Origin: Promethearchaeia archaeon
GTDB taxonomy: Archaea > Asgardarchaeota > Lokiarchaeia > Sigyniarchaeales > SOKP01
Assembly: GCA_029856145.1 (NCBI GenBank)
Contig: JAHQWK010000004.1
Span: forward strand, 180,641-244,640
DNA: 64,000 nt
Direction: 5' to 3'
The notes under the pieces are model-generated. The model searched no databases and was not told where the DNA came from. It was given only the letters and a program-made list of their open reading frames with translations. The position numbers and the translations under genes were made by a program. Shown here piece by piece: positions 8,934 through 23,346 of this stretch. How positions within the stretch are numbered: position 1 is the first letter of the stretch; the number at the start of each line of letters is the position of its first letter.

Positions 8934-10481
8934 TTATGTATAAATATGTGAAAAAGTATCTACTGTTTTTAAAACATCTGTAGCTAAATAATTCTGCTTA
9001 AACACCGAAGCAAAAAAAGCGCGATCTTCAGGGTTGAAGTAATTATAACCAAATTTTTTCCATTCAATACTAGAATGTAAGGGAGCAAAAAGAGTTATTT
9101 GATCTTTCACCAGATTCATTAATAATAAATTTCTTTCTTGTTTGGTTTTATTTGTCAACGTAGTTAATAAGATATCCTCATTAAAAGTGTCCCAAGTATC
9201 TTTAAATTGTAAACAAAACCTTTTAATGTCGATTTTATTTTCAACAATTAACCTTGCTAAAGCCATTATAGATGTCTCATAAGTACTCATCTTATTTTGA
9301 TGAAATTGAGGGTTTGAAATAATTATGCTTGGTACAGACTTTGCTTCTTTTTGATTTTGAGACACATTATACTCTGGTAAAATTCTTAACTGGTTTAATC
9401 CAAGTATATTTCTAACATCTGCAATTTTTCCCCCTGTATCAAAGAACTGCTTATTAATAATATATACCATTAATTTTTGAGCATGAACATCACCAAAATA
9501 TGGGTAATCTGAAGCATAGAGGAGATATTCAGACCAATCTCGATTATCTACACTCTTTTTGTTATTAGATTGAAACCATTTGCGAAAACTTTCAAAAAAA
9601 TTCCCAGCACCCGCACCATGCAACATTGAAAGATCTCCATATGTGTTTGGCTGGACAATAGTATTGTATACTTCGTAATCATCAATGTTTCCTTGAGCAA
9701 AATGGGCAATTATCACTTTAAAATGAGGTAATAAATCAGGATATTTAGATTGAATTACATTTCTTGCAGATCTAATTAATTTTCCAATTTCTAAAATCGA
9801 ACCCCGACCTCTTGTATCAAAAATAACTGGTAAGGAATAGCTAGCAGCTTCAATAAGAACATTTATTACCTTTTCAGAAGTCATTTTGTCAATATATCCC
9901 TCTGACCTAGGATGCAATTTTAAACCTCGAAGTCCTAGTGTCTCTCTTATATATTTCACTTCATTTACAGCTTTTTGTCCTTCCATTGGATCACAGCGAC
10001 CATAACCAATTAATTTCATAGAAAATGGAAATCTAGTTGTAAAACGTGAAACATTTATGTTACTTGCTCTATACAATGCTTCTGGCATTTTCGCCCTAAA
10101 AATGTCTTGAAAGGGGAAACACACCCCCATATCTATGAAAGAATAAAATTTGGATTTCTCTTTTAAATCGGAAAATCTTTTTCCTAACTTTTCAAGCTCA
10201 CTATAGAGCCTGATTGTAAAAGGAAAGGGTGTAAAAGACCACGAAATTTTTGTAAATTTTCCATCCATCGTAGTTGTAAAAGACTGTTCTCCAGTCTTTT
10301 CCCAATCACTTTTTATTCTACCTTGTACATTACCCCAAAAATCGAACGTCCCAACTCCTGGAGCTAAAGGGTTCATCATCGTTGCCCCATCTACATCTTG
10401 ACCAAGATGAGAATGAGCATCAATTACAAGTAAATGTTCTACTCTTTTTTTTCCATCTTGTTCTATAGTACATGTTAACAT
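8934..10481 (-). CDS. Amidohydrolase-family metallohydrolase with C-terminal extension
   Basis: IDAHSHLG, GLKLHP, IIAH, YASDYPY. Confidence 0.8.
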   Translation of the reverse strand: MLTCTIEQDGKKRVEHLLVIDAHSHLGQDVDGATMMNPLAPGVGTFDFWGNVQGRIKSDWEKTGEQSFTTTMDGKFTKISWSFTPFPFTIRLYSELEKLGKRFSDLKEKSKFYSFIDMGVCFPFQDIFRAKMPEALYRASNINVSRFTTRFPFSMKLIGYGRCDPMEGQKAVNEVKYIRETLGLRGLKLHPRSEGYIDKMTSEKVINVLIEAASYSLPVIFDTRGRGSILEIGKLIRSARNVIQSKYPDLLPHFKVIIAHFAQGNIDDYEVYNTIVQPNTYGDLSMLHGAGAGNFFESFRKWFQSNNKKSVDNRDWSEYLLYASDYPYFGDVHAQKLMVYIINKQFFDTGGKIADVRNILGLNQLRILPEYNVSQNQKEAKSVPSIIISNPQFHQNKMSTYETSIMALARLIVENKIDIKRFCLQFKDTWDTFNEDILLTTLTNKTKQERNLLLMNLVKDQITLFAPLHSSIEWKKFGYNYFNPEDRAFFASVFKQNYLATDVLKTVDTFSHIYT

Positions 10482-10512
10482 TAATTTATCCTCCAGTTTT
10501 TAATAATGGTAA

Positions 10513-12195
10513 CTAATCCCTCATTTCTTTTGGAAGGGTTAAAACACCTGTAAGTGGATTATTTAAAGGATCCTGGCAATATTGAATTGTAAAATATATC
10601 AAATCATATAAGATGCTTGGATCCTCTCCGTTTTTTAATTTGTAATCATAAAGTGAAAGCTGATATTCTGCCTCTGTTATTGGCGGTTCGGCATAGCTTA
10701 CACTTCCAAATACGGACTGGAGCACTGGTTTTAAAAAGGGACTGTAGAGAAATCCTAACTCTTTCAATTCATCTTTTAAGTAGAAAAACATTCTCTGAAC
10801 TGCTTGCATCATATAACGTATCGGTTGATCTTTTGGTCCTAAATATTGCACTGCAAATTCTGGATCATATTGAGCAAGCTTCTCGTGACTAATATTAGGA
10901 GCAGGCCTAAATAAAGAAATCAACCCCCTCTCAATTGCTCCTTGACGATTTATTGCAATTGTTTCACTACCCGCATCAGGCACCCAAACTCCTTTTTCTA
11001 GCAATTTTCTTGCTTTATAGCACATAGCTTGAATCAGCATTCCGACTCCGATACGGCGACAAATAGAAATCTGCGCATCACTAATTCTAACTTCGATTGT
11101 CCCCCAATCCGTTAGTGGGAACACATCTTGAAATCTTCCGTCTTCTAAACTTGCTTTCTGGACAGTTTGAAGAAAGAAATTAACAGAATTCTCACTAAGA
11201 TCAGTTAAATAGGGAATATAATATTTTGGGTCATTCCCACTTAACATGGTAGTGTTATATTTTAAACGCAAAGATCTAGTGCAGTTTGGTGCAGTAATTC
11301 TTCTATTAATAATTTTTACCACATCAGTCGGTTTATTATTCAAAATCGGAGAATTACATGTAAGAGCAATAAGATGAGGTATAAAATTTCGAATCATACA
11401 ATATGCTTGAATTTTCTCTAATTCTGAATTAAAAGTACCTAAGTGCGAATGGTCAGCCTGGGAGACTCCGCGCATGTATTCCTTCGTCGCTGGATTAATT
11501 GCAGAAGCGATGATGTGCAGATCCTTGGGTAGTGTGGTTTTAGCTAATAAAAACAGAGTACTCGCCCAGTATGCTAACTCTTCAACATAAACACATGGAG
11601 GTGTTACAAGTTCTAATATATACGTAATTGCTGTGACATTTCCATCTCTAGCAAAAGTATCTATATCAACAGAACTATCTCCTAAAGCGTAACGTATATC
11701 CATAGCATACCCTTTTTCAAGATCATCTCGTCCCCAAGGTCTAGCTAAAACTTTTTGTCTAATATAGTCAGGTACTGGTAAAAAATCACTTCTCCCTTCA
11801 TATAATATGTCATCCATAATTTTAATGGCATCTTTTACAATTTCTTTCATTCGATAAACCATTTCTTCGCCGGGAGGATAATTACCATTGTCATCTGCTA
11901 TTATTAATTCCATTTCGATACCATGTGTAAATGGTAAAGGTGTCCAATGTTCTGTATCAGCAAGCATTTCCGCCCATGGTCTTTCAGGGATATAAACCTC
12001 TCGATAATCTGACCCGAGAAATAATTTATCACCAGATCTATCTATGTTATTTCCCAATGAAACCGCTTGTGCTGCTGCTTTACCTTTTTTAGTATATAGC
12101 TGGGAAAAAGTATCTACTTTCTGTCCAGATTTTTGTTTCTTCTTTTTCTCTTTCTTTTTCTCTTTCTTTTGCTTCTTTTTTTTGTCTTTTGCCAT
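10513..12195 (-). CDS. Glutamate-cysteine ligase family 2 (YbdK-like) carboxylate-amine ligase with Lys-rich N-terminus
   Basis: THGIEMELI, LELVTPP, HSHLG, ALTCNSP, GTIEVRISDAQ. Confidence 0.8.
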   Translation of the reverse strand: MAKDKKKKQKKEKKKEKKKKQKSGQKVDTFSQLYTKKGKAAAQAVSLGNNIDRSGDKLFLGSDYREVYIPERPWAEMLADTEHWTPLPFTHGIEMELIIADDNGNYPPGEEMVYRMKEIVKDAIKIMDDILYEGRSDFLPVPDYIRQKVLARPWGRDDLEKGYAMDIRYALGDSSVDIDTFARDGNVTAITYILELVTPPCVYVEELAYWASTLFLLAKTTLPKDLHIIASAINPATKEYMRGVSQADHSHLGTFNSELEKIQAYCMIRNFIPHLIALTCNSPILNNKPTDVVKIINRRITAPNCTRSLRLKYNTTMLSGNDPKYYIPYLTDLSENSVNFFLQTVQKASLEDGRFQDVFPLTDWGTIEVRISDAQISICRRIGVGMLIQAMCYKARKLLEKGVWVPDAGSETIAINRQGAIERGLISLFRPAPNISHEKLAQYDPEFAVQYLGPKDQPIRYMMQAVQRMFFYLKDELKELGFLYSPFLKPVLQSVFGSVSYAEPPITEAEYQLSLYDYKLKNGEDPSILYDLIYFTIQYCQDPLNNPLTGVLTLPKEMRD

Positions 12196-12309
12196 AAAAC
12201 CCTTCCCTTTTGATTGCTTTACACTATTTTCTAATTTAAAGATATCTTTTTATCTTTTACAATATATATAAAAAATTTTAATTTTAAATTTTAGGTAAAT
12301 CTCTTCATT

Positions 12310-14187
12310 TTAAAATAAAGATTGGATAAAAGTTTTAAAAATATTATAATCGTTGATAAATTCGTAGGAAAGGACTAAGTTGATGATTTTTGATTTGGCT
12401 GTTGGAAATATCTGTGAAAGCTCATTAGAGATTTTACCCCCTTTAAAAATAGAATCGTCTATTATCAAATTAATAGTATCTCCAACTTTTTTAATTTTTG
12501 AATAAAATCGATCGCTTAAATCGTGTTCAGACGATATTATAATTGTTGGTTTTCCTAAATATGGAATAAAGTCTAAATTAAAAATTAATACTTGACCGGG
12601 GACACTGCTGAGATTTTTAAAAAATTGTTTCAATGAAGCATTAAGGGTGTTTAACTCATTTTGGTTATAAATCTCTTTTGATGGAAAGACATAATACGCT
12701 ATTGATTTTTTTAGAGAATATTTCAAATCATTATATACACGATCTAATATTGGAAAAATGCTAAAATCAAAACTAAATAAAGATAAAAACGCAATTGGAA
12801 AATTGAAATCATTTACAAGAATATTACTGCTTACATTTCCACCAATTAAACTAAAATTTGTAATTTCCCTATTAACTTGAGAGATAAACGTATTCAATAA
12901 GAAATATTGAGAAAAAGCTAATGTAGCTTCAACTTTAGTTTGAATTTCATCTACCATTACATAAATAATATCGAATAGATTTTTTGTTAATTTTTCTTTA
13001 AGCTCTTGAATAGCAATAGTTTCAATAATAGAATGAGCTACTGTAGGACTATCAAATTCAGCAAGAGCATTAATTGCGTCCTTTATAAACTCATAAGATT
13101 GTTTTCTTAATTTTCTATTTTCTAGGTTGTTGCTATATGAATTATGGCTTAATTGAATGATTAAATTAAAAATTTTAATTACTTCAGATTGAGAATTCTG
13201 ACCATATAACTTTTTCGCTATATTAAACAAAACTCTTGTCTTTAGAAAATCATTATCTATTTGCTCTACTAATTTCTGAGCTGATAAGGGATTAGATTCA
13301 ATTACTTTACTAAATATAATGCTTATAAGATCTTCTTTAATAGAAGGATTTTGAATTAAAGATCCAGTTCTAATTGCTTGTTCAGGATTCACTAAAACTT
13401 GATCTAAAGCTAATAATTTCAATATCTTTTGTTGGAGATCTAAATCTTGTAAATTTCGAGCTACTTGGACCATTTGATTAAAATCTTTTGAGGCATAAGC
13501 TCGAATTAAATTTGTATATAAATTAATTTGTTCAGTCTTGTTGGATAGCATTAATGCGAACTCTAAAGCTTTTAGAGGATTATTAATTGAAAGATAACCT
13601 TTTGCTAACTGCTTTATATAAGCATCTATTTTTTCAAGCAGTTGAGAAGTCGACGAACCCATAGATCGTGCCGAATTGAATTCCTCTCTCAAAATTTTTA
13701 ACTGTTGTTCTGCCTTTTTTATTGCATTTTGATCCATATTAATGAAATAATCTTCTGAATTAAACATTTCAACCTTTTCTGTAATGGTAAAAGCATAATT
13801 TTTTAAAATTGCGTTCATTTTGCTAACTGGGACAACCCCTCTGACTTTTTGTACTTTTACCTTATATTCAGTAATCTTAAGCCAATTTACATTAATAATT
13901 AATTTACCAAAACCATCAGCAGTTGGCTCTAACTTTAATGTTATATCCTTGGTTTCTCCCGGACCAAATTCTATATGGGTGTTAAATTCTTCGGGTTGTA
14001 ATCTAATGTTTAAGTTTTCTCCCTCAAAATCGAATTTAAATGTCTCTTTTTTGCTTGAAGTGTTTACCGTCTGAATTTTGATCTCATTATCAATACCGGT
14101 AATTAATAAATTTTGCGGGAATTTTGTTATATTTAAAGAGATGATTTTATCTGCGTTTGACATAATTCGAAGGTTCTTCTTGTTCAC
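12310..14187 (-). CDS. Hypothetical protein: Ig-like N-terminus and helical-repeat middle
   Basis: 625-aa ORF co-oriented with the ligase; likely start is the ATG of MSNADK. Confidence 0.6.
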   Translation of the reverse strand: MNKKNLRIMSNADKIISLNITKFPQNLLITGIDNEIKIQTVNTSSKKETFKFDFEGENLNIRLQPEEFNTHIEFGPGETKDITLKLEPTADGFGKLIINVNWLKITEYKVKVQKVRGVVPVSKMNAILKNYAFTITEKVEMFNSEDYFINMDQNAIKKAEQQLKILREEFNSARSMGSSTSQLLEKIDAYIKQLAKGYLSINNPLKALEFALMLSNKTEQINLYTNLIRAYASKDFNQMVQVARNLQDLDLQQKILKLLALDQVLVNPEQAIRTGSLIQNPSIKEDLISIIFSKVIESNPLSAQKLVEQIDNDFLKTRVLFNIAKKLYGQNSQSEVIKIFNLIIQLSHNSYSNNLENRKLRKQSYEFIKDAINALAEFDSPTVAHSIIETIAIQELKEKLTKNLFDIIYVMVDEIQTKVEATLAFSQYFLLNTFISQVNREITNFSLIGGNVSSNILVNDFNFPIAFLSLFSFDFSIFPILDRVYNDLKYSLKKSIAYYVFPSKEIYNQNELNTLNASLKQFFKNLSSVPGQVLIFNLDFIPYLGKPTIIISSEHDLSDRFYSKIKKVGDTINLIIDDSIFKGGKISNELSQIFPTAKSKIINLVLSYEFINDYNIFKTFIQSLF

Positions 14188-14286
14188 TTTATTAATACTA
14201 ATCCAAAATATCTCATTATTTTTTAGGTTTAATAATTAATAATGGATTAACTAGTTTAGGTTTAATTAACAAAAAGCAATGAAGTT

Positions 14287-15054
14287 TTATTTTCCCATTC
14301 TTCGATTTCTTCTTAAATAATCTTCTATATCTTCAATTACCATTTCTTTATTATAATCAGGCCATAAATCCTCTCTAAATTTAAATTCAGCATAAGAAGA
14401 ATCCCATAACAAAAATCCTGAGATTCTTGCTCCATCATCCATTCCAGTTCTAATGATGTAATCTACTGGAGGGAAATTTTTCGTATAAAGATATTTTTTA
14501 ATTAAATCCGTATTTACATCTTCTGGATTAACACCATCACTGATTATTTCCTTTACAGCGTCGACTATTTCTTCATGACCATCATACATAATACAAAGGT
14601 TTATGAAATTTTGGTCATGTTTCTTAGTAAATTCAATTAATTCTTCAATTTTTTTCTTTGCATTCTCTGGTAACATTGATATCCTACCAATAACATTGAA
14701 TTTAACTTTTTCTTCTTTGACAATCGATTCATTTATTACCGTATCGACTGCTTTAATCACTATCTTATAAATATACTCAAGTTCCTCAGGTTTACGTTTT
14801 TTCACATTTTCAAGTGATAAAATATACAAACTTAAATATTGGATCCCCGCATCAAAAAAATCAAATAGCCTCTTTTTGAGGTTTTCATATCCGACTAGAT
14901 GACCAAAATTGATATCAAGGTTTCTTTTTTTCGCCCATCGTCTGTTTTTGGTTAAAGGGGGAAATCCCTTTTAAATACCATCAATGATGAGCCCGATATG
15001 CTTAGGTAACCTATCTTTTCCAGTTTTTTTTAATTCTTCTAAAGTAGTGACCAT
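14287..15054 (-). CDS. uppS: cis-prenyltransferase (undecaprenyl diphosphate synthase family), split by a 30-nt intron; 245 aa spliced
   Basis: Exon 1 MVTT...PKHIGLIIDG; exon 2 NRRWAKK...SLEN...IRTG..RISGFLLW..SYAE; in-frame TAA at 14971-14973 lies within the insertion. Confidence 0.92.
14946..14975 (-). other. Putative bulge-helix-bulge mRNA intron in uppS (30 nt)
   Basis: TTTAAAAGGGATTTCCCCCTTTAACCAAAA hairpin; removal gives GAT GGT AAC AGA CGA TGG (DGNRRW). Confidence 0.85.
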
Positions 15055-15189
15055 CTAACCAATTAAAAAGTTGTATTATTTTTAATATTAATATTAAATA
15101 TTAGAGTTATTAATTTTATCTAAAAATTTTTTATTATATAAATTTATGATTTAAACTCTTACCAACTTAACATCGTTGATTGGGTTTAT

Positions 15190-15431
15190 TTTTTTAGAAC
15201 AATCAGGAGGAATTTTAAATTTATAAGCGATTATCTCATCTTTCATTGACATGTCTAGCTTTTCCTCTGCCTCATAATAGATTCAATTTCATCAAAAGTG
15301 CTTATCTCATCGATGTTGATATTCAGCAATAAGAATGCATACTGAATGAACCTTGCACGAGAGATATAAATTACTGTCTCCTCATCTTCGAAGCGAAGTG
15401 ATAAATATTCATTTACTATAAATTCTTGCAT
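15190..15431 (-). pseudogene. Frameshifted N-terminal fragment of a Loki-type LRR-associated protein family
   Basis: MQEFIVNEYLSLRFEDEETVIYI...FDEIESI continues in another frame as EAEEKLDMSMKD...KIPPD, then decays. Confidence 0.55.
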
Positions 15432-15705
15432 GTTTTCTTTGAGTAGGTTTTTCAATATTATAATATTACCTATTTAAATTGAACGACTCCACAAATTTAA
15501 ATCATTATCCTCATAATTAATGATAAGTGAGATAATCATATGACAAATCTTTAGATTATTACTCTTCATACTCTTATTATTCGAAATTATCATTCATATC
15601 ATTAATTTTAAATACTATTTTGCAATACTTTGGTTTAATTAGATAAGTTTTTGAATAAATAAATATTACATTAAAGAAAAAAAAAGAAATTCAGAGATAC
15701 GGTTA

Positions 15706-17382
15706 ATGCTTTCTAACGATTATTTATTTTCGAACATTGGAATTGATTCTCTATCGTTTTTTTCGCCCAGAACTTATGTTGATTTACGTGAACTTGCGAG
15801 AGAACGGAATGTAGATCCTAATAAATATACTAAGGGTCTTCTGTCTAAGGAGATTCGAATACCTGAAGTTGATGAAGATGTTGTTTCTTTAGGTTTAAAA
15901 GCAGGTTATAATACCTTACAAAGAGGTGGTATCTCTCCTAAGAGTATTGATGCTTTGTTTTTTGGAAACGAAACTATAACATATAGTGTCAAGTCGATCT
16001 CTAACATTTTTGCCGAAATGTTAGATATTTCTCCTAATTCGATTACTCAAGACATATATAATGCTTGTGCAGGCGGAACAATAGCAATTCTTAACGCTAT
16101 AGGTTTAATTGAAAACAATATTATTAATAAAGCCCTCATTATAAGTGCTGATATCTCATCATATCGTATAGGTTCGCCCGGTGAGCCAACACAAGGTTCA
16201 GGAGCTATTGGATTGGTTATCTCGAAAAATCCTCGAATAGCTAAATTTAGTAAAAATTTTGGAAAGATATCAGGTAATGTTAATGACTTTTTCAGACTTC
16301 CAAATGATAAAAATGCACAAGCATATGGTAAATATTCTCAAGAGGCTTATTTTAAATTCCAGCTTGGTGCATATGATGATTTAATCAAACATATTGGGGA
16401 TTTTCATGCAGATTTCTATACATTTCATGCACCATACTCGAAACTTCCGATAAAGATAATGCAACAAATAATACTAAAGCGTTGGATTAAACATATATAT
16501 GAACTACCTAAATTTGAGAGAAAAGCGATTAGATCATCCATACTTACGAAGCTTGATCATTTTCTACATGATGTAACCGTATTACCAGAATATCTTTATT
16601 TAAAACTAAAAGAAAGAGGATATTCTTCCCCCACTTTAGAGAAATTTTCATATTGGGTGAACACAAATGTAAAAGAACGAGTACTTCCTCAACTAAATGT
16701 TCCAATGCACTTTGGTAACATGTATAATGCTTCGCTTTGGGCTCAAGTCCTTTACCTTCTCGAAAACCATGCTCGTGTTGATGATACAATTTATTTTGGT
16801 TCATACGGCTCGGGAGCGACTTGTATTTCAGGGCTTCTAAAAGTTCAAGATGATTTTAAGAAAATTATTCAGAATGGTCCTCACATTGATGACTTTATAA
16901 ATATGAAAAAGAGAAAAAGCGTTCAAGAATACGAATTAATAAAGAATGGTACTACTAAACCAAAGATTTTATTGGGTTATATTGTTGAACATGAACAAAA
17001 TAATGAAAGAGGCTTTACCCTTCATTACTGTGATGATGGGTGCCTTATCCCGAATATAAAAGGATTAGATCACTGTCCGAAAGGGCATTCAGGATATCAT
17101 AAACGGTTTTTCCCTCTCTTTGCGAAGTTGAATAGCGATCCAATTGCTCAATCAGATATCAATGATCTCAAATATTTAAAAGAAGGGTTAGTAAGAGTAG
17201 CTAGTAATGTAAAAAAAGGCAGTGCTTTAGAGTATGAAATAAGAAGAGTTGAGAATGAAAACGAGGGAAATCTAAACGCAAAAGGATTATTAAATTGGAG
17301 TCCTATATATTTGCCAATATCAGAAAAATATTTAATAAAAAGAGATAATCAAATCGAAGATCTGCCTATTGTTCTTGAATAA
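15706..17382 (+). CDS. mvaS: HMG-CoA synthase with C-terminal DUF35-like extension
   Basis: ED, GNET, NACAGG (catalytic Cys), GEPTQGSGA, FHAPY, GNMYNAS. Confidence 0.9.
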   Translation: MLSNDYLFSNIGIDSLSFFSPRTYVDLRELARERNVDPNKYTKGLLSKEIRIPEVDEDVVSLGLKAGYNTLQRGGISPKSIDALFFGNETITYSVKSISNIFAEMLDISPNSITQDIYNACAGGTIAILNAIGLIENNIINKALIISADISSYRIGSPGEPTQGSGAIGLVISKNPRIAKFSKNFGKISGNVNDFFRLPNDKNAQAYGKYSQEAYFKFQLGAYDDLIKHIGDFHADFYTFHAPYSKLPIKIMQQIILKRWIKHIYELPKFERKAIRSSILTKLDHFLHDVTVLPEYLYLKLKERGYSSPTLEKFSYWVNTNVKERVLPQLNVPMHFGNMYNASLWAQVLYLLENHARVDDTIYFGSYGSGATCISGLLKVQDDFKKIIQNGPHIDDFINMKKRKSVQEYELIKNGTTKPKILLGYIVEHEQNNERGFTLHYCDDGCLIPNIKGLDHCPKGHSGYHKRFFPLFAKLNSDPIAQSDINDLKYLKEGLVRVASNVKKGSALEYEIRRVENENEGNLNAKGLLNWSPIYLPISEKYLIKRDNQIEDLPIVLE

Positions 17383-17435
17383 TAAGATACTACTACTTTT
17401 TTATCCTCATAACTAATTTTACATCCGCATTCAAT

Positions 17436-17996
17436 TTATTCATCTCCCCACCTCTTAATGTCACTTTCCACCCCAATTTGGTCAAGAATCCTCCCTACAG
17501 TATGATCGATAAGTTCATCAACGGATTCTGGATTAATGTAATAAGAAGGAATTGGGGGTGCAATTACAACACCTAAATTTGCTAGTTTAAGCATATTCTC
17601 TAAATGTATTGGACTTAATGGACTTTCCCTTACAATAAGAATTAGTTTTCGTTTTTCTTTTATTGTTACATCCGCAGCTCTTGTAATTAAATTATCAGAA
17701 TAACCATTAGCTATTGATGCTAAAGTTTTCATAGTACAAGGAACAATGATCATTCCATCAGTTTTATACGAACCACTAGCAGGTGGAGCAGTCAAATCAT
17801 TTACATCATAATAAGTTGTAGCTAATTGTTGAATATCAGTAATTCTTATGTTAGCTTCACTTAAAAGAACTAGTTCAGCTGCTTTAGATATGATTAATTC
17901 AGTTTCAATATTTTTTTCTTTTAAATAATTTAATAATTTCACTGCAATTGATATACCTGAGGCACCAGTTATCGCAATAAGAATCATAATTCTCAC
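17436..17996 (-). CDS. ubiX: Flavin prenyltransferase
   Basis: AITGASG, ASGS, PCTMKTLASIANGYSDNLITRAADV, RESPL. Confidence 0.95.
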   Translation of the reverse strand: MRIMILIAITGASGISIAVKLLNYLKEKNIETELIISKAAELVLLSEANIRITDIQQLATTYYDVNDLTAPPASGSYKTDGMIIVPCTMKTLASIANGYSDNLITRAADVTIKEKRKLILIVRESPLSPIHLENMLKLANLGVVIAPPIPSYYINPESVDELIDHTVGRILDQIGVESDIKRWGDE

Positions 17997-18114
17997 AGAT
18001 ATTTGATTGTAAATTTAAATTTCTTCTAAGTATTAATTAATTAGGAATAATAATTATTTTTTGTATTAATTGTAAAAATGTATAATAAAAAATACTTTTC
18101 TAAGATAAAATCGA

Positions 18115-19404
18115 TTGTTAATTATGAGTGGATATAATTCTGAAATTTCTGGTTTTTATAAATTATCAATAAAAAAACGCAGAGAACTATTATCTGAACT
18201 TATTAATTTTAATGAAAATGATATAAAACTTCTGGAGAATTTAGGTTACTTTACAGAAACTCAAATTGATACCTTTATAGAGAATGTAATTGGTTCTTAT
18301 CAATTACCAATTGGAATTGCTTGTAATTTTAAAGTAAACAATAAGGACTATTTAATCCCTATGGTTATTGAAGAACCTTCAGTTGTAGCAGCAGCCTCAA
18401 ATGCAGCAAAAATAGCTAGAAAACATGGAGGTTTTCACTCTGAGAATGTTAAATCAGTAATGATCTCTCAAATTCAAATAACTAACGTAAAAGATATTGA
18501 ATCTGCTAAAAGGAAATTAGAAGAAAATAAGGAAAGCATTTTAAAATACGCAAATGAAAAAGATCCTCTCTTAATAAAATTAGGTGGCGGAGCTTTTGAT
18601 TTTGAAATTCGAGAGTTAACAACGAGAAGAGGAGAGATGTTGATTGTTCATTTATTAGTTGATGTTTTAGATGCCATGGGGGCGAATGTGGTAAATACTA
18701 TGGCTGAAACCATTAGTCCGTATATAGAAGAAATATCTGGAGGCAAGATATATCTTAGAATTGTATCCAATTTGGCAACTCATCGAATAGCGAAAAGTAA
18801 AGCAACATTTGATAAGGATTTATTAGGTGGAGACGAAGTAGTAGAAGGGATCTTAAATGCATATGAATTTGCACTAGCAGATCCTTATAGAGCTACAACC
18901 CATAATAAAGGAATAATGAATGGAATTATAGCTTTAACGATGGCTACAGGAAACGATACGCGAGCTATTGAATCTGGGGCACACGCATATGCTGCATTGA
19001 ATGGACAATATTCTCCATTAACCAAATTTCAGATTGATTCTAATGGAAATTTAGTAGGAGAAATAGAAGTCCCTCTTGCTCTAGGCATTATTGGAGGGAT
19101 GACTAAAATACATCCTATGGCTCGACTAACTTTAAAAATTTTAAATATCAAAAGTGCAAATGAACTTTCTCAAGTAGCAGCTGCGCTTGGTTTAGCTCAA
19201 AATGTGGCCGCCTTAAGAGCCTTAGCTTCAGAAGGAATCCAAGAAGGTCACATGGTTCTCCATTCGAGAAATATTGCAAAACTTGCAGGCGTACCTGAAA
19301 AGTTAATAGAAAAAGTAGCAAGCAAATTAGTAGAAGATAAGAAAATTAGAGTTGACCATGCGAAAGAAATTTTAAAAAGAATACTTAATAATGAAAACCT
19401 TTAG
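18115..19404 (+). CDS. mvaA: HMG-CoA reductase, class II
   Basis: IENVIG, EEPSVVAAAS, DAMGANVVNT, RATTHNKGIMNG, EGIQEGHMVLH. Confidence 0.95.
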   Translation: MLIMSGYNSEISGFYKLSIKKRRELLSELINFNENDIKLLENLGYFTETQIDTFIENVIGSYQLPIGIACNFKVNNKDYLIPMVIEEPSVVAAASNAAKIARKHGGFHSENVKSVMISQIQITNVKDIESAKRKLEENKESILKYANEKDPLLIKLGGGAFDFEIRELTTRRGEMLIVHLLVDVLDAMGANVVNTMAETISPYIEEISGGKIYLRIVSNLATHRIAKSKATFDKDLLGGDEVVEGILNAYEFALADPYRATTHNKGIMNGIIALTMATGNDTRAIESGAHAYAALNGQYSPLTKFQIDSNGNLVGEIEVPLALGIIGGMTKIHPMARLTLKILNIKSANELSQVAAALGLAQNVAALRALASEGIQEGHMVLHSRNIAKLAGVPEKLIEKVASKLVEDKKIRVDHAKEILKRILNNENL

Positions 19405-19471
19405 TTTTATAAAATTTGTTTCTGTAACTCAAAATATTAGTCAATTAGATCGAAATAAGTTTATGAGATGA

Positions 19472-20782
19472 ATGAAATTTATGGGCTTTAGAGAATATAT
19501 AAATCAAATTGATGAAGAAGGTCTTCTTCGAAAGGTTGAAATTGAAGTATCGAAAAATTTAGAGATTCCCGGAATTTTGAAAGAGATTGAACCAACTCCA
19601 GTTATGTTTAATCATGTTAGAGAATCGGAATTTCGTGTAATTGGTAATGTTTTCTGTACTAAAAATGTAATTGCTTCATATTTCGGTGTTACTCCTGCAG
19701 ATCTCATACCAATGCTCTCAAAAGCGATTTCAGAACGTTCAGAACCAGAAGTTGTTTCTAGGGCTCCTTGTCAAGAAGTCATTGAATCAGGAGTTGATTT
19801 AGATAATCTTCCAATTTTATTCCATTGTGAAAAAGATGGTGGAAATTATATTAGTTCTGCTGTTGTTATTACTCGAGATCCTGATTATGGACAAAATATG
19901 GATTTTCATCGAGCAATGCAATTTTCAAAAGGAAAATTTTCAACTCGAATAGTAAGGGGTCGTCATTTTCACAAATTTTTAGAAAAAAATGGTGAATTAG
20001 ACGTAGCTTTTTGTATAGGAAATACTCCAAACATTCTAATTGCTGGAGCAACTTCTGTAGATATTGGAGTTGATGAATTACAAATAGCAAATGCATTAGA
20101 ACCTATTAAAGTAGTTAAAGCAAGTTCAGTAGATCTTCTAATACCTGCAGAAGCAGAATTCATTTTAGAAGGACGTGTTTATTTAGAAGAAAAACATTCA
20201 GAAGGTCCTTTTGTTGATCTAACTGAGACCTATGACACGATTAGAGAAGAACCCGTCTTTGAAGTAAAAAAAATCACTCATAGAAAAGATGCGATTTGGC
20301 AAGCTTTATTACCAGGTGCACTTGAACATAAAATATTAATGGGGATGCCTCGAGAGCCAACTATATTTAATAAAGTAAAGGAAGCAGGAGTAAAGTGTTT
20401 AGATGTAAATGTAAATCCTGGAGGTTGTTCATGGTTACATGCAATAGTCCAGATTGATAAAAAAACAGAAGAAGACGGGAAAAAAGCGATATTTGGTACC
20501 TTTACAGGGCATAGAAGTTGTAAACATGTTTTTATTGTTGATAAAGATATTAATATTTATGATCCTCTCTCTGTAGAATGGGCGATGGCAACTCGCTTCC
20601 AAGGAGATACCAGAATGATAGTGAAAAATAAAGAACCAGGCAGTAGTTTGGACCCCAGTGCTGAACCAAGCAGTAAGTTAACTACCAAAATTGGGTTTGA
20701 TTTAACTAAACCACTTGTCGTTAAAGGAAAGAGTTTTGATATTGCAGAATTTCCAAAAGTTGATCTGAACAAATATTTTTAA
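19472..20782 (+). CDS. UbiD-family decarboxylase, probably anhydromevalonate phosphate decarboxylase
   Basis: DGGNYI, EGPFVD, VEWAMATR, SSLDPS; mevalonate operon context. Confidence 0.9.
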   Translation: MKFMGFREYINQIDEEGLLRKVEIEVSKNLEIPGILKEIEPTPVMFNHVRESEFRVIGNVFCTKNVIASYFGVTPADLIPMLSKAISERSEPEVVSRAPCQEVIESGVDLDNLPILFHCEKDGGNYISSAVVITRDPDYGQNMDFHRAMQFSKGKFSTRIVRGRHFHKFLEKNGELDVAFCIGNTPNILIAGATSVDIGVDELQIANALEPIKVVKASSVDLLIPAEAEFILEGRVYLEEKHSEGPFVDLTETYDTIREEPVFEVKKITHRKDAIWQALLPGALEHKILMGMPREPTIFNKVKEAGVKCLDVNVNPGGCSWLHAIVQIDKKTEEDGKKAIFGTFTGHRSCKHVFIVDKDINIYDPLSVEWAMATRFQGDTRMIVKNKEPGSSLDPSAEPSSKLTTKIGFDLTKPLVVKGKSFDIAEFPKVDLNKYF

Positions 20783-20799
20783 GATGAGGAAAGGAAAAA

Positions 20800-21993
20800 A
20801 TGAAATTAACATCAGAAGAACAGGACACGCTGGATGGCAAGCACGGTAAAGCTGCCCAAAAATCAATGGAAATTTTAACCACATTGGGCGAAATATTTGA
20901 TGCTGAATGCATGATCGATGTATATGGCGTTCAGATAGCTGGAGTATCGTACGCCAATCTAGGGGAAGCAGGTTTGGAATTCTTAAGCGAAATGGCAGAA
21001 GATGGAAAAGTTAGAGTTTTAGCGACATTAAATCCAGCAGGAATGGATCGTGAAAATTGGCAAGCTTTAGGAATAGATGAAGAATTTGCTAAAAATCAGA
21101 ATCGAGCAATTGATGCATTTGCCAAAATGGGTATAATTACAACATGCTCTTGTACCCCATATTTAATTGGAAATGCTCCACACTACGGTCAACATCTTGC
21201 ATGGGCTGAAAGTAGTGCTGTATGTTATGCAAACTCAGTTATAGGTGCTAGAACTAACCGTGAGGGTGGTCCAAGTGCTTTAGCTTCAGCTATAACCGGA
21301 AAAACGCCAAAATATGGTTATCATTTAGATGAACATCGTCATGGAGAGGTATTAGTTAAAATAAATGCTCCAATTAAAGGTACTGATGGATTTGGTGTTT
21401 TGGGAAAAATAATTGGGGATAAATTAGTCGAGTTAGGAAAGAAAATTCCTTATATAACAGGAATTCCTTCTGCTACAGTTGAAGAACTCAAATCTTTTTG
21501 TGCATCAGTTGCGACTTACGGTGGAACAGCTTTATTCCATATGAAAGGTATAACTCCAGAATATAATAATTATCAGAAACCTAGTGATATTGTTTTTGAA
21601 ATTAATCAAGATGACTTAGATAGAACGCGATTGGAACTTATTGATGATGATATTGAGATAGATTTTGTTAGTATAGGGTGCCCTCATGCTTCAATTCACG
21701 AAATTGCAAAGATTGCGAGCTTATTGAAGGGAAAGAAAGTAAAAAAAGAATTTTGGATCACGACTGCTCGACCTACAAAAAGAATTGCTGATGAAGCGGG
21801 TTATTCTAAAATAATTGAAAATGCAGGAGCGAAATTTGCAGCAGATACTTGTTGTGTTGTTGCTCCAATTAAAGAACGTTTTAAAGGAATTATGGTAGAT
21901 TCAGCAAAAGCTTGTTATTATGGTCGTGCAAAGAACAAATTTAAAGTAAAAATTGGTTCAGTTGAAGAATGTGTTGAGGAGGCAATAAAATGA
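20800..21993 (+). CDS. Phosphomevalonate dehydratase large subunit (aconitase X)
   Basis: GVSY, CSCTPY, ESSAVCYANSVIGARTNREG, GCPH, DTC. Confidence 0.9.
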   Translation: MKLTSEEQDTLDGKHGKAAQKSMEILTTLGEIFDAECMIDVYGVQIAGVSYANLGEAGLEFLSEMAEDGKVRVLATLNPAGMDRENWQALGIDEEFAKNQNRAIDAFAKMGIITTCSCTPYLIGNAPHYGQHLAWAESSAVCYANSVIGARTNREGGPSALASAITGKTPKYGYHLDEHRHGEVLVKINAPIKGTDGFGVLGKIIGDKLVELGKKIPYITGIPSATVEELKSFCASVATYGGTALFHMKGITPEYNNYQKPSDIVFEINQDDLDRTRLELIDDDIEIDFVSIGCPHASIHEIAKIASLLKGKKVKKEFWITTARPTKRIADEAGYSKIIENAGAKFAADTCCVVAPIKERFKGIMVDSAKACYYGRAKNKFKVKIGSVEECVEEAIK

Positions 21994-22379
21994 AATTAGC
22001 TGGTAGAAAAATCTTTAAAGGTACTGCTGAGGCAGAAGCAATTGTTACACAAGATGGAATTTCTTTTTATGGTGGTATTGACCCTGATACAGGAAAAGTA
22101 GTTGAAGTTGGCCATGAGCTTGAAGGACAATCGATATCAGGAAAAGTGTTGGTTTTTCCAACCGGTAAAGGATCAACAGTGGGATCTTATACCATGTATA
22201 GAATGAAAAAGAATAACACTGCTCCTGTTGCAATCGTTAATAAAGAAATCGATACAATTGTTGCAGTAGGGTGTATAATCAGCGAAATTCCTTGTGTGGA
22301 TAAAATTGATATAAGTAATATCAAAACAGGACAAAAAATTATTGTTAATGGTTCTGAAGGAACTGTGGAGGTAAAATAA
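21990..22379 (+). CDS. Phosphomevalonate dehydratase small subunit (DUF126 swivel domain)
   Basis: ISFYGGIDPDTG, GKGSTVGSY. Confidence 0.9.
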   Translation: MKLAGRKIFKGTAEAEAIVTQDGISFYGGIDPDTGKVVEVGHELEGQSISGKVLVFPTGKGSTVGSYTMYRMKKNNTAPVAIVNKEIDTIVAVGCIISEIPCVDKIDISNIKTGQKIIVNGSEGTVEVK

Positions 22380-23346
22380 ATGGGAGTCGGAAAAGGATAT
22401 GGAAAGACCATACTTTTTGGTGAAATTATTTTCCTATTTCAGGAATAAACACTATCATTTTGTTGTGTATGGTCTTCCAGCAATCGCATCAGCTTTAGGA
22501 TCCTCTACGACTGCTGAAGTTAAAGTAGTCAAGGGTAATGGTTGGACAGTTAATGATCAAAGACTTGCAACACCAGGTTACAAAAAGAAGAAATTCAATG
22601 AGGCAATACAATCAATTAAAAATGTAATTGAACATTTGAGAGTGGATACCGAGAATAAAAAACTTGAAATAAAATTTGCGGGGGATCTGATTGCCGCTAG
22701 CGGAGTAGGTGCTTCAGCTGCTCAATGTACATCACTTTCCCGAGCTTTAAATGACACGTTTAATCTCAAATTAACTGAAAAAAAGATAAATGAGGCAGCT
22801 TATGAAGGAGAGAAAGCCTATCATGGTACTCCTTCAGGTATTGATAACACAGCCTCTACTTATGGTGGTTTAATTTGGTTTGTTAAAAACTTGAGAGGGG
22901 GGGAAAATACGATGGAACTTCTACAGTCACCAAAGAAAATGCCCTTAGTAATAATAAATTCAGGAATAACAGCTTCTACAACAGAAGTAGTAGCTGATGT
23001 TCGACGTTTAAAAGAGGAATCTCCTTTAAAATTTGAAAAAATCTTTAATAATTATGAAAAATTAGCATTAGCAGCAAAAAAAGCCTTACTTGAAGGAAAT
23101 ATTAACACTGTTGGTGACCTAATGAATCAAAACCACAAATTACTACAAGATATAACGGTATCTGGAGAGATTAATGATAAATTAGTCGAAATCTCCTTAC
23201 GAAATGGGGCTAAAGGTGCTAAAATGACAGGAACAGGGCGAGGTGGTTTGGTCATAGCATTAGCTGAAAATGAAGAAATTCAAGATGAAATCGCCAAAAC
23301 TATTGAAAAAAAAGGATATAATGCCTGGAAAACCATGATTGGATGA
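22380..23346 (+). CDS. mvk: Mevalonate kinase split by a 31-nt intron; 311 aa spliced
   Basis: Exon 1 MGVGKGYGKTILFGE starts immediately after the upstream stop; exon 2 HFVVYG...GVGASAA, HGTPSGIDN, KMTGTGRGG. Confidence 0.93.
22425..22455 (+). other. Putative bulge-helix-bulge mRNA intron in mvk (31 nt)
   Basis: ATTATTTTCCTATTTCAGGAATAAACACTAT; central helix GGTG/CACT with 3-nt bulges; removal gives GGT GAA CAT TTT (GEHF). Confidence 0.9.

What the first reader, a model, noticed from the sequence alone, without database searches (positions are those of the whole stretch)
14933..14992. 30-nt BHB-like intron inside the catalytic DGNRR motif of uppS
Minus strand reads GCUCAUC-A-UUG [AUGG] UA|U UUAAAAGGG-AUUUC-CCCCUUUAA [CCAA] AA|A CAG-AC-GAUGGGC. 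The exon stem GCUCAUC/GAUGGGC, the intron stem and two 3-nt bulges are present; the central helix has three pairs plus an A-A mismatch. The insertion keeps frame but contains TAA, so the unspliced mRNA yields 27 aa. Removing 14946-14975 restores PKHIGLIIDGNRRWAK. The rest of the gene shows no decay, and cis-prenyltransferase is normally needed for glycan lipid carriers.
Basis: partly seen in the sequence, partly recalled or inferred. Interest (0 to 1): 0.9.

Follow-up and report, generated by a model that had tools for sequence, protein, structure and literature searches.

The report
tRNA-type mini-intron splitting Asgard uppS
The only gene for a lipid-carrier enzyme (uppS) in this Loki-type Asgard archaeon is broken inside its active-site motif by a 30-base hairpin shaped like an archaeal tRNA intron, and related genomes keep it in a way that makes sense only if the messenger RNA is cut and re-joined, which the papers I could search confirm inside a coding sequence for just one archaeal gene (cbf5).

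Summary
Observation confirmed. A 30-nt insert (14946-14975, minus strand) with an in-frame TAA splits the DG|NRR motif of the only uppS in a 97%-complete Promethearchaeota genome; cutting at the two BHB bulges restores a 245-aa protein. Six other assemblies of the species carry it identically. A homologous insert sits at the same site in 10 of 48 same-genus genomes, 4 further genomes and 4 metagenome contigs. Intron stem, central helix and an exon-exon helix all show compensatory changes; one synonymous exon-exon pair holds in 14/14 intron-bearing versus 6/50 intron-less genes. dN/dS (0.06-0.11) equals that of intron-less genes, so it is not a pseudogene; readthrough and ribosomal bypass do not fit. 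The genome encodes a two-subunit EndA with the broad-specificity loop, and RtcB. Its mvk, uL11 and uS3 genes carry similar inserts. No spliced RNA was found, so splicing is inferred. The scan noted the same uppS intron, and the class, before in other Asgard genomes.

The parts
14976..15054 (-). uppS exon 1 (ATG 15054; 26 codons plus the first base of the Asn codon; ends ...HIGLIIDG)
   Evidence: same N-terminus in intron-less orthologues
14946..14975 (-). 30-nt BHB-type intron; in-frame TAA at 14973-14971; stem 14974-14966 with 14960-14952, loop 14965-14961
14287..14945 (-). uppS exon 2 (NRRW... to stop; 219 codons, no lesion)
   Evidence: PF01255 and TIGR00055 above cut-off; dN/dS
14978..14981 (-). 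exon strand of the central helix (AUGG), pairs with intron 14951-14948 (CCAA): A-A, U-A, G-C, G-C
   Evidence: middle two pairs kept in 17/17 distinct sequences, one with a U-A to C-G change in 5
14975..14977 (-). 5' bulge UA|U, predicted cut between 14976 and 14975
   Evidence: BHB rule (cut between 2nd and 3rd bulge base, PMC2738675); A at position 2 invariant in 18 sequences
14945..14947 (-). 3' bulge AA|A, predicted cut between 14946 and 14945
   Evidence: A at positions 2 and 3 invariant
14933..14992 (-). whole motif with exon-exon helices (14984-14982 with 14944-14942; 14992-14986 with 14939-14933)
   Evidence: inner exon helix 100% paired in intron-bearing genes
22425..22455 (+). second BHB-type insert (31 nt, frameshifting) in the GE|H motif of mevalonate kinase, same gene cluster
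   Evidence: present in 22 and exactly absent in 8 of 30 same-genus loci; TIGR00549

Best explanation
The insert is a real pre-mRNA intron of the archaeal tRNA type. The uppS transcript folds at the exon-intron junctions into exon helix / 3-nt bulge / 4-position central helix / 3-nt bulge / intron hairpin. The cell's (alpha-beta)2 splicing endonuclease EndA, which has the broad-specificity L1/CSL loop, cuts after the second base of each bulge, and RtcB joins the exons, restoring the DGNRR motif and a 245-aa cis-prenyltransferase. Shown here: the anatomy, exact restoration of the gene, conservation and covariation of the fold, purifying selection on the protein, single copy, presence of EndA and RtcB. 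Inferred: that the fold forms in vivo, that EndA cuts a helix with only two constant pairs, and that RtcB ligates. History (inferred, weaker): one origin in this family, then repeated exact loss and/or replacement between intron-bearing and intron-less alleles.
For: Only one PF01255 gene in the genome; uppS found in 88 of 90 high-quality Asgard genomes searched. Same-site 30-nt insert in 10 of 48 same-genus genomes, 4 other genomes, 4 metagenome contigs. On 17 distinct sequences 84.4% of cells pair, 6 pairs and 19 cells change on both sides, 0/500 shuffles reach percent paired or covariation score, slid controls 33-50%. Exon-intron compensation: Asp codon GAT to GAC with the matching intron base in 5 sequences. 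Exon-exon pair -8/+2 holds in 14/14 intron-bearing (U-A 9, G-C 5) versus 6/50 intron-less genes; Asn codon AAC 13/14 versus 10/50; on independent tree pairs it goes the same way 4.8 of 6 times and never the other way. dN/dS 0.06-0.11 versus 0.06-0.10. EndA catalytic subunit aligns to Aeropyrum pernix EndA with the loop motif KPR and the Y/H/K triad (residues from PMC3241643); second paralogue lacks the His; Asgard (alpha-beta)2 EndA with L1 loop is published (PMC5829648); RtcB present. Single-copy uL11 and uS3 and also mvk carry 28-31-nt inserts of the same geometry, so a removal route independent of reading frame must exist.
Against: No spliced transcript or peptide seen. The central helix is weak: outer positions pair in only 8/17 and 4/17 sequences, and the BHB-constrained fold is 0.1-7.0 kcal/mol above the computed minimum in the 18 sequences. 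Covariation counts come from related sequences and the independent-pair sign test is not significant (median p 0.06, 6 pairs). Asgard EndA has not been assayed (10.64898/2026.10.13.758758).
Confidence: 0.92

Rival explanations
1. Translational recoding: the ribosome reads through the stop or hops over the 30 bases (T4 gene 60 type bypass), with the hairpin as the signal.
For: The insert is a multiple of three, begins with one sense codon and a stop in most copies, and forms a hairpin.
Against: Matching take-off and landing codons in only 1 of 15 sequences. The stop varies (TAA, TAG, TGA, two stops in two genomes, none in G036). Readthrough would leave ten extra, unconserved residues inside DGNRR. 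It does not explain selection on exon-exon pairing across the insert or the 28- and 31-nt frameshifting inserts in uL11 and mvk.
Confidence: 0.03
2. Pseudogene or N-truncated protein: the insert inactivates the gene, or exon 2 is translated from an internal start.
For: Databases annotate these genes as 220-227-aa proteins starting at or just before NRRW.
Against: No second copy; dN/dS as low as in intact genes over dS 0.4-0.8; exon 1 is conserved with its start codon; a product starting after DG lacks the Asp that aligns with the DGN motif of solved UPPS structures (catalytic role of Asp26 from own knowledge, D26A mutant mentioned in PMC7839719).
Confidence: 0.02
3. The insert is removed, but by another nuclease or at DNA level (a small excising element), not by EndA.
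For: The central helix departs from the canonical four pairs; exact presence/absence is patchy on the tree.
Against: The 3-4-3 geometry and cut positions give exactly the restoring junction in every copy; no other copy of the sequence in the genome; no target duplication or mobile-element gene nearby; all six assemblies of the species hold the insert, none the empty site.
Confidence: 0.03
4. Assembly or sequencing artefact.
For: The genome is metagenome-assembled.
Against: Identical in six other assemblies; diverged homologues in 13 other genomes.
Confidence: 0

Closest known systems
cbf5 pre-mRNA intron of Crenarchaeota (Desulfurococcales, Sulfolobales; Watanabe 2002, Yoshinari 2006, Yokobori 2009 = PMC2738675)
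   Same: Short intron in a catalytic motif of a protein gene; unconventional (relaxed) BHB at the borders; cut between 2nd and 3rd bulge base; hetero-oligomeric EndA; lost exactly in some lineages.
   Different: Different gene and phylum; interrupts the Asn codon next to the catalytic Asp-Gly rather than the Asp codon; far patchier (at least 6 changes within one family); one of several such introns in the same genome; not yet confirmed by cDNA.
Haloferax volcanii HVO_1309 BHB intron (PMC7714728)
   Same: mRNA substrate of the splicing endonuclease, shown in vivo and in vitro.
   Different: Lies in the 5' UTR, not in the coding sequence; the Haloferax enzyme needs a strict hBHBh' motif.
tRNA introns of Asgard archaea (10.64898/2026.10.13.758758)
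   Same: Same motif, same enzyme type, similar size (this genome has 21-43-nt tRNA introns by ARAGORN), repeated gains, many relaxed motifs.
   Different: That study covers tRNA genes only ('mRNA' does not occur in its text); no tRNA intron of this genome matches the uppS intron beyond chance-level words.

Membership tests
EndA-spliced BHB intron (cbf5 type) | Two 3-nt bulges on opposite strands, four positions apart, at the exon-intron borders | tested here: met
   Geometry fixed in 18 sequences without gaps; flanking helices covary
EndA-spliced BHB intron (cbf5 type) | Canonical 4-bp central helix (strict hBHBh') | tested here: not met
   3 of 4 pairs here; outer positions paired in 8/17 and 4/17, middle two in 17/17. 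It is a relaxed motif, as most cbf5 introns are
EndA-spliced BHB intron (cbf5 type) | Cuts after the second base of each bulge restore the functional RNA exactly | tested here: met
   245-aa ORF with DGNRR, matching intron-less orthologues
EndA-spliced BHB intron (cbf5 type) | Outer helices h (exon-exon) and h' (intron) | tested here: met
   inner exon helix 100%, intron stem 89.5%, outer exon helix 80.7% paired
EndA-spliced BHB intron (cbf5 type) | Host encodes a broad-specificity (alpha-beta)2 EndA with L1/CSL loop, and a ligase | tested here: met
EndA-spliced BHB intron (cbf5 type) | Spliced mRNA or EndA cleavage demonstrated | not testable with these tools
   No raw RNA reads; indirect contig searches negative
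Programmed ribosomal bypass (T4 gene 60 type) | Matched take-off and landing codons | tested here: not met
   1 of 15
Pseudogene | Relaxed selection or further lesions | tested here: not met
   dN/dS 0.06-0.11; exon 2 open for 219 codons in all 14 genomes
cis-prenyltransferase (UppS, PF01255 / TIGR00055) | Score above curated cut-off and DGNRR motif | tested here: met
   exon 2 alone 189.9 bits Pfam (cut-off 27), 164.2 bits TIGR00055 (cut-off 109.55); motif restored by splicing
Described Rfam RNA family | Match to a covariance model | tested here: not met
   no match at E up to 1 in 14200-15700

The most novel reading that the evidence does not exclude
Loki-type Asgard archaea run EndA/RtcB splicing as a general step of gene expression, and the deliberately weak two-pair central helix makes uppS splicing conditional, so that introns in uppS and mvk gate isoprenoid and glycan-carrier synthesis, a prokaryotic parallel to RtcB-ligated non-spliceosomal mRNA splicing in eukaryotes. 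The multi-gene part is well supported here; the regulatory part is not: most relatives do without the uppS intron, uppS and mvk introns are gained or lost independently, and unrelated genes (uL11, uS3) have them too.
Probability: 0.15. Interest if true: 0.92.

Novelty: new variant of a known kind. Interest (0 to 1): 0.78.

Why it matters
In the papers searched, archaeal mRNA splicing inside a coding sequence is confirmed only for cbf5. This case, with mvk, uL11 and uS3 in the same genome, says that the closest prokaryotic relatives of eukaryotes interrupt core protein genes with introns and must splice them, which bears on how intron-tolerant the host of eukaryogenesis was. It gives a 60-nt substrate for a first assay of Asgard EndA and a natural series of relaxed motifs. 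It also means Asgard genes are mis-annotated: these uppS genes are in databases as N-truncated proteins or with ten extra residues, and pathway presence/absence calls can be wrong.

Tried and rejected
Search for spliced RNA: a metagenome pattern allowing 0 or 30 inserted bases gave four contigs with the insert and one without, and the latter is an intron-less gene of another lineage (87% to its nearest locus); no full-length protein in the lists is closer than 92% to an intron-bearing gene's spliced product; full-length uL11 proteins clustered with truncated ones come from contigs only 86-88% identical. De novo genome-wide BHB scan: first run timed out; the second gave no enrichment of the true geometry over decoy geometries, so no intron count can be given from motif alone; it served only for leads. 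A shared intron family in this genome: uppS, mvk, uL11, uS3 and csp inserts are not alike in sequence (one of ten pairs, uppS-csp, p 0.002 uncorrected; the mvk slice in that script was shifted by 2 nt), and the loop AUUUC is not conserved among uppS introns. Monophyly of intron-bearing uppS genes rejected (AU p 2.4e-07). Intron versus exon distance correlates over all 15 genes (Mantel rho 0.40, p 0.003) but not within the 11 closest (rho 0.10, p 0.24), so vertical descent versus lateral exchange is unresolved. A longer match in L140 is a scaffold-gap duplication. Protein P0125 seemed to be a stop-free variant but is a TAG read as Q. Promoter scan uninformative. Exact look-up of the 180-aa exon-2 ORF found nothing.

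Full report
Observation. The gene starts at ATG 15054; unspliced it ends at TAA 14973-14971 after 27 residues. Removing 14946-14975 (or, with the same product, 14947-14976) gives a 245-aa frame with PKHIGLIIDGNRRWAK. Exon 2 alone passes the Pfam PF01255 and TIGR00055 cut-offs. Only 14 of 200,000 shuffles of the insert give as many central-helix and intron-stem pairs in this register. All six other assemblies of the same species that cover the site hold the identical 60-mer, so it is not an assembly error.

Organism and copy number. The closest relatives are titled Promethearchaeota (Lokiarchaeota). The genome is 3.55 Mb, 97% complete, and has one cis-prenyltransferase gene. The family was found in 88 of 90 high-quality Asgard genomes searched. 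The gene lies next to an isoprenoid cluster with HMG-CoA synthase and mevalonate kinase.

Relatives. Of 48 same-genus genomes in which the site is covered, 10 carry a 30-nt insert at exactly this place and 38 read DGNRRW without it. Four more genomes and four metagenome contigs carry it too. The inserts are homologous (gap-free alignment) but differ by up to 13 of 30 bases. Seventeen of 18 hold an in-frame stop, of three kinds and at two positions; G036 has none. So the stop is not what is conserved.

What is conserved is the fold. On 17 distinct sequences 84.4% of cells pair; 6 pairs and 19 cells change on both sides; no shuffle of 500 reaches the percent paired or the covariation score, and slid structures give 33-50%. 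Four intron-stem pairs switch between A-U and G-C. In the central helix the Asp codon changes GAT to GAC in five sequences and the facing intron base changes with it (U-A to C-G). The inner exon-exon helix is paired in every sequence, with U-A in 12 and G-C in 5 at its middle pair. That pair uses synonymous or near-synonymous positions and holds in 14/14 intron-bearing genes but 6/50 intron-less ones; the Asn codon is AAC in 13/14 versus 10/50. Related sequences inflate such counts: on six independent pairs of the tree the trait goes the same way 4.8 times on average and never the other way, median p 0.06. The second base of both bulges is an invariant A.

The motif is relaxed. The outer positions of the central helix pair in only 8/17 and 4/17 sequences; several copies have just the two middle pairs between A-A and G-A mismatches. 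The BHB-constrained fold lies 1.5 kcal/mol above the computed minimum here and 0.1-7.0 above it in the set. A strict hBHBh' test is therefore not met. Most cbf5 introns are also unconventional and need the hetero-oligomeric enzyme (PMC2738675).

The gene is alive. dN/dS between intron-bearing genes is 0.06-0.11 at dS 0.38-0.84, against 0.06-0.10 between intron-less genes; exon 2 is open for 219 codons in all 14 genomes and exon 1 keeps its start and sequence. An internal start would lose the Asp-Gly of the motif, which aligns with the DGN motif of solved UPPS structures. Bypass needs matched take-off and landing codons, seen in 1 of 15.

Machinery. The genome has two EndA paralogues. One aligns along its length to Aeropyrum pernix EndA, including the loop with KPR and the Tyr, His and Lys of the active site; Lys44 of that loop gives broad specificity (PMC3241643; PMC12397907). 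The other lacks the His, as fits a structural subunit. Asgard (alpha-beta)2 EndA with this loop is published (PMC5829648). RtcB is present and intact.

Not alone. Mevalonate kinase in this window has a 31-nt frameshifting insert of the same geometry (22425-22455), present in 22 and exactly absent in 8 of 30 same-genus loci. The single uL11 gene has a 28-nt frameshifting insert shared by 12 relatives; other relatives have inserts at two other sites of uL11, and G064 has three. The single uS3 gene has a 30-nt insert with a stop (not compared with relatives). Since these include ribosomal proteins and lengths that break the frame, the cell must remove such inserts at RNA level. My motif-only genome scan had no power to count them.

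History. On the uppS tree (junction codons left out) the intron needs 8 changes, at least 6 on well-supported branches, and a single clade is rejected. Sisters differ: G009 has it and G019, 91% identical, has not. As the inserts are homologous, one gain followed by many exact losses, or exchange of alleles, is likelier than many gains; the distance test does not separate these. Yokobori et al. proposed replacement by a copy of the spliced mRNA for cbf5 losses.

Mechanism, shown and inferred. Shown: anatomy, exact restoration, selection on the RNA fold and on the protein, enzymes present. Inferred: folding in vivo, two cuts by EndA, ligation by RtcB. Not found: any spliced sequence; these look-ups reach assembled contigs only and are weak evidence either way. 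A regulatory role is possible but unsupported: most relatives lack the intron, and uppS and mvk introns do not always co-occur (G009 has only the first, many have only the second).

Comparison and novelty. It works like the crenarchaeal cbf5 intron and meets every testable feature of a relaxed BHB intron; experimental proof is missing. Papers searched give cbf5 and the Haloferax HVO_1309 5' UTR as the only archaeal mRNA cases (PMC7714728) and treat Asgard introns in tRNA only; I found none on Asgard mRNA introns, within the limits of that library. Earlier notes of this scan describe the same uppS intron in another genome and similar introns in other Asgard classes; they are unchecked and were not used as support. 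Verdict: real, very probably spliced; new variant of a known kind; interest 0.78.

Noticed in passing
window 22425-22455 (+): 31-nt frameshifting BHB-type insert in mevalonate kinase; 22 of 30 same-genus loci have it, 8 lack it exactly.
   Followed up: yes
G000:C28:14741-14768 (-), L181: 28-nt frameshifting BHB-type insert in the only uL11 gene; same site in 12 relatives; two more intron sites (35-37 nt, one 31 nt) in other relatives; G064 (L224) has three inserts in the first 35 codons.
   Followed up: partly
G000:C8:31424-31453 (-), L183: 30-nt insert with a stop in the only uS3 gene; removal restores a continuous uS3 frame.
   Followed up: partly
G000:C6:11598-11627 (-), L182: 30-nt insert in a cold-shock-domain gene; removal gives a typical CspA start.
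   Followed up: partly
L036 (G036): The uppS intron has no stop here, so the unspliced mRNA would give a 255-aa protein with ten extra residues in DGNRR; it is in databases in that form.
   Followed up: partly
whole genome: ARAGORN finds only 19 tRNA genes in a 97%-complete genome, several with implausible introns, which suggests many multiply interrupted tRNA genes.
   Followed up: no
window 14287-23346: Isoprenoid gene cluster: uppS, HMG-CoA synthase, UbiX-like, HMG-CoA reductase, UbiD-like, aconitase-X-like subunits, mevalonate kinase (some names from sequence resemblance only).
   Followed up: no
G017, G027, G035: Three same-genus genomes of 95-98% completeness gave no uppS match; assembly gaps or loss, not examined.
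   Followed up: no
window 8934-14187 (-): Three long ORFs downstream of uppS (625, 560 and 515 aa) have no Pfam match.
   Followed up: no
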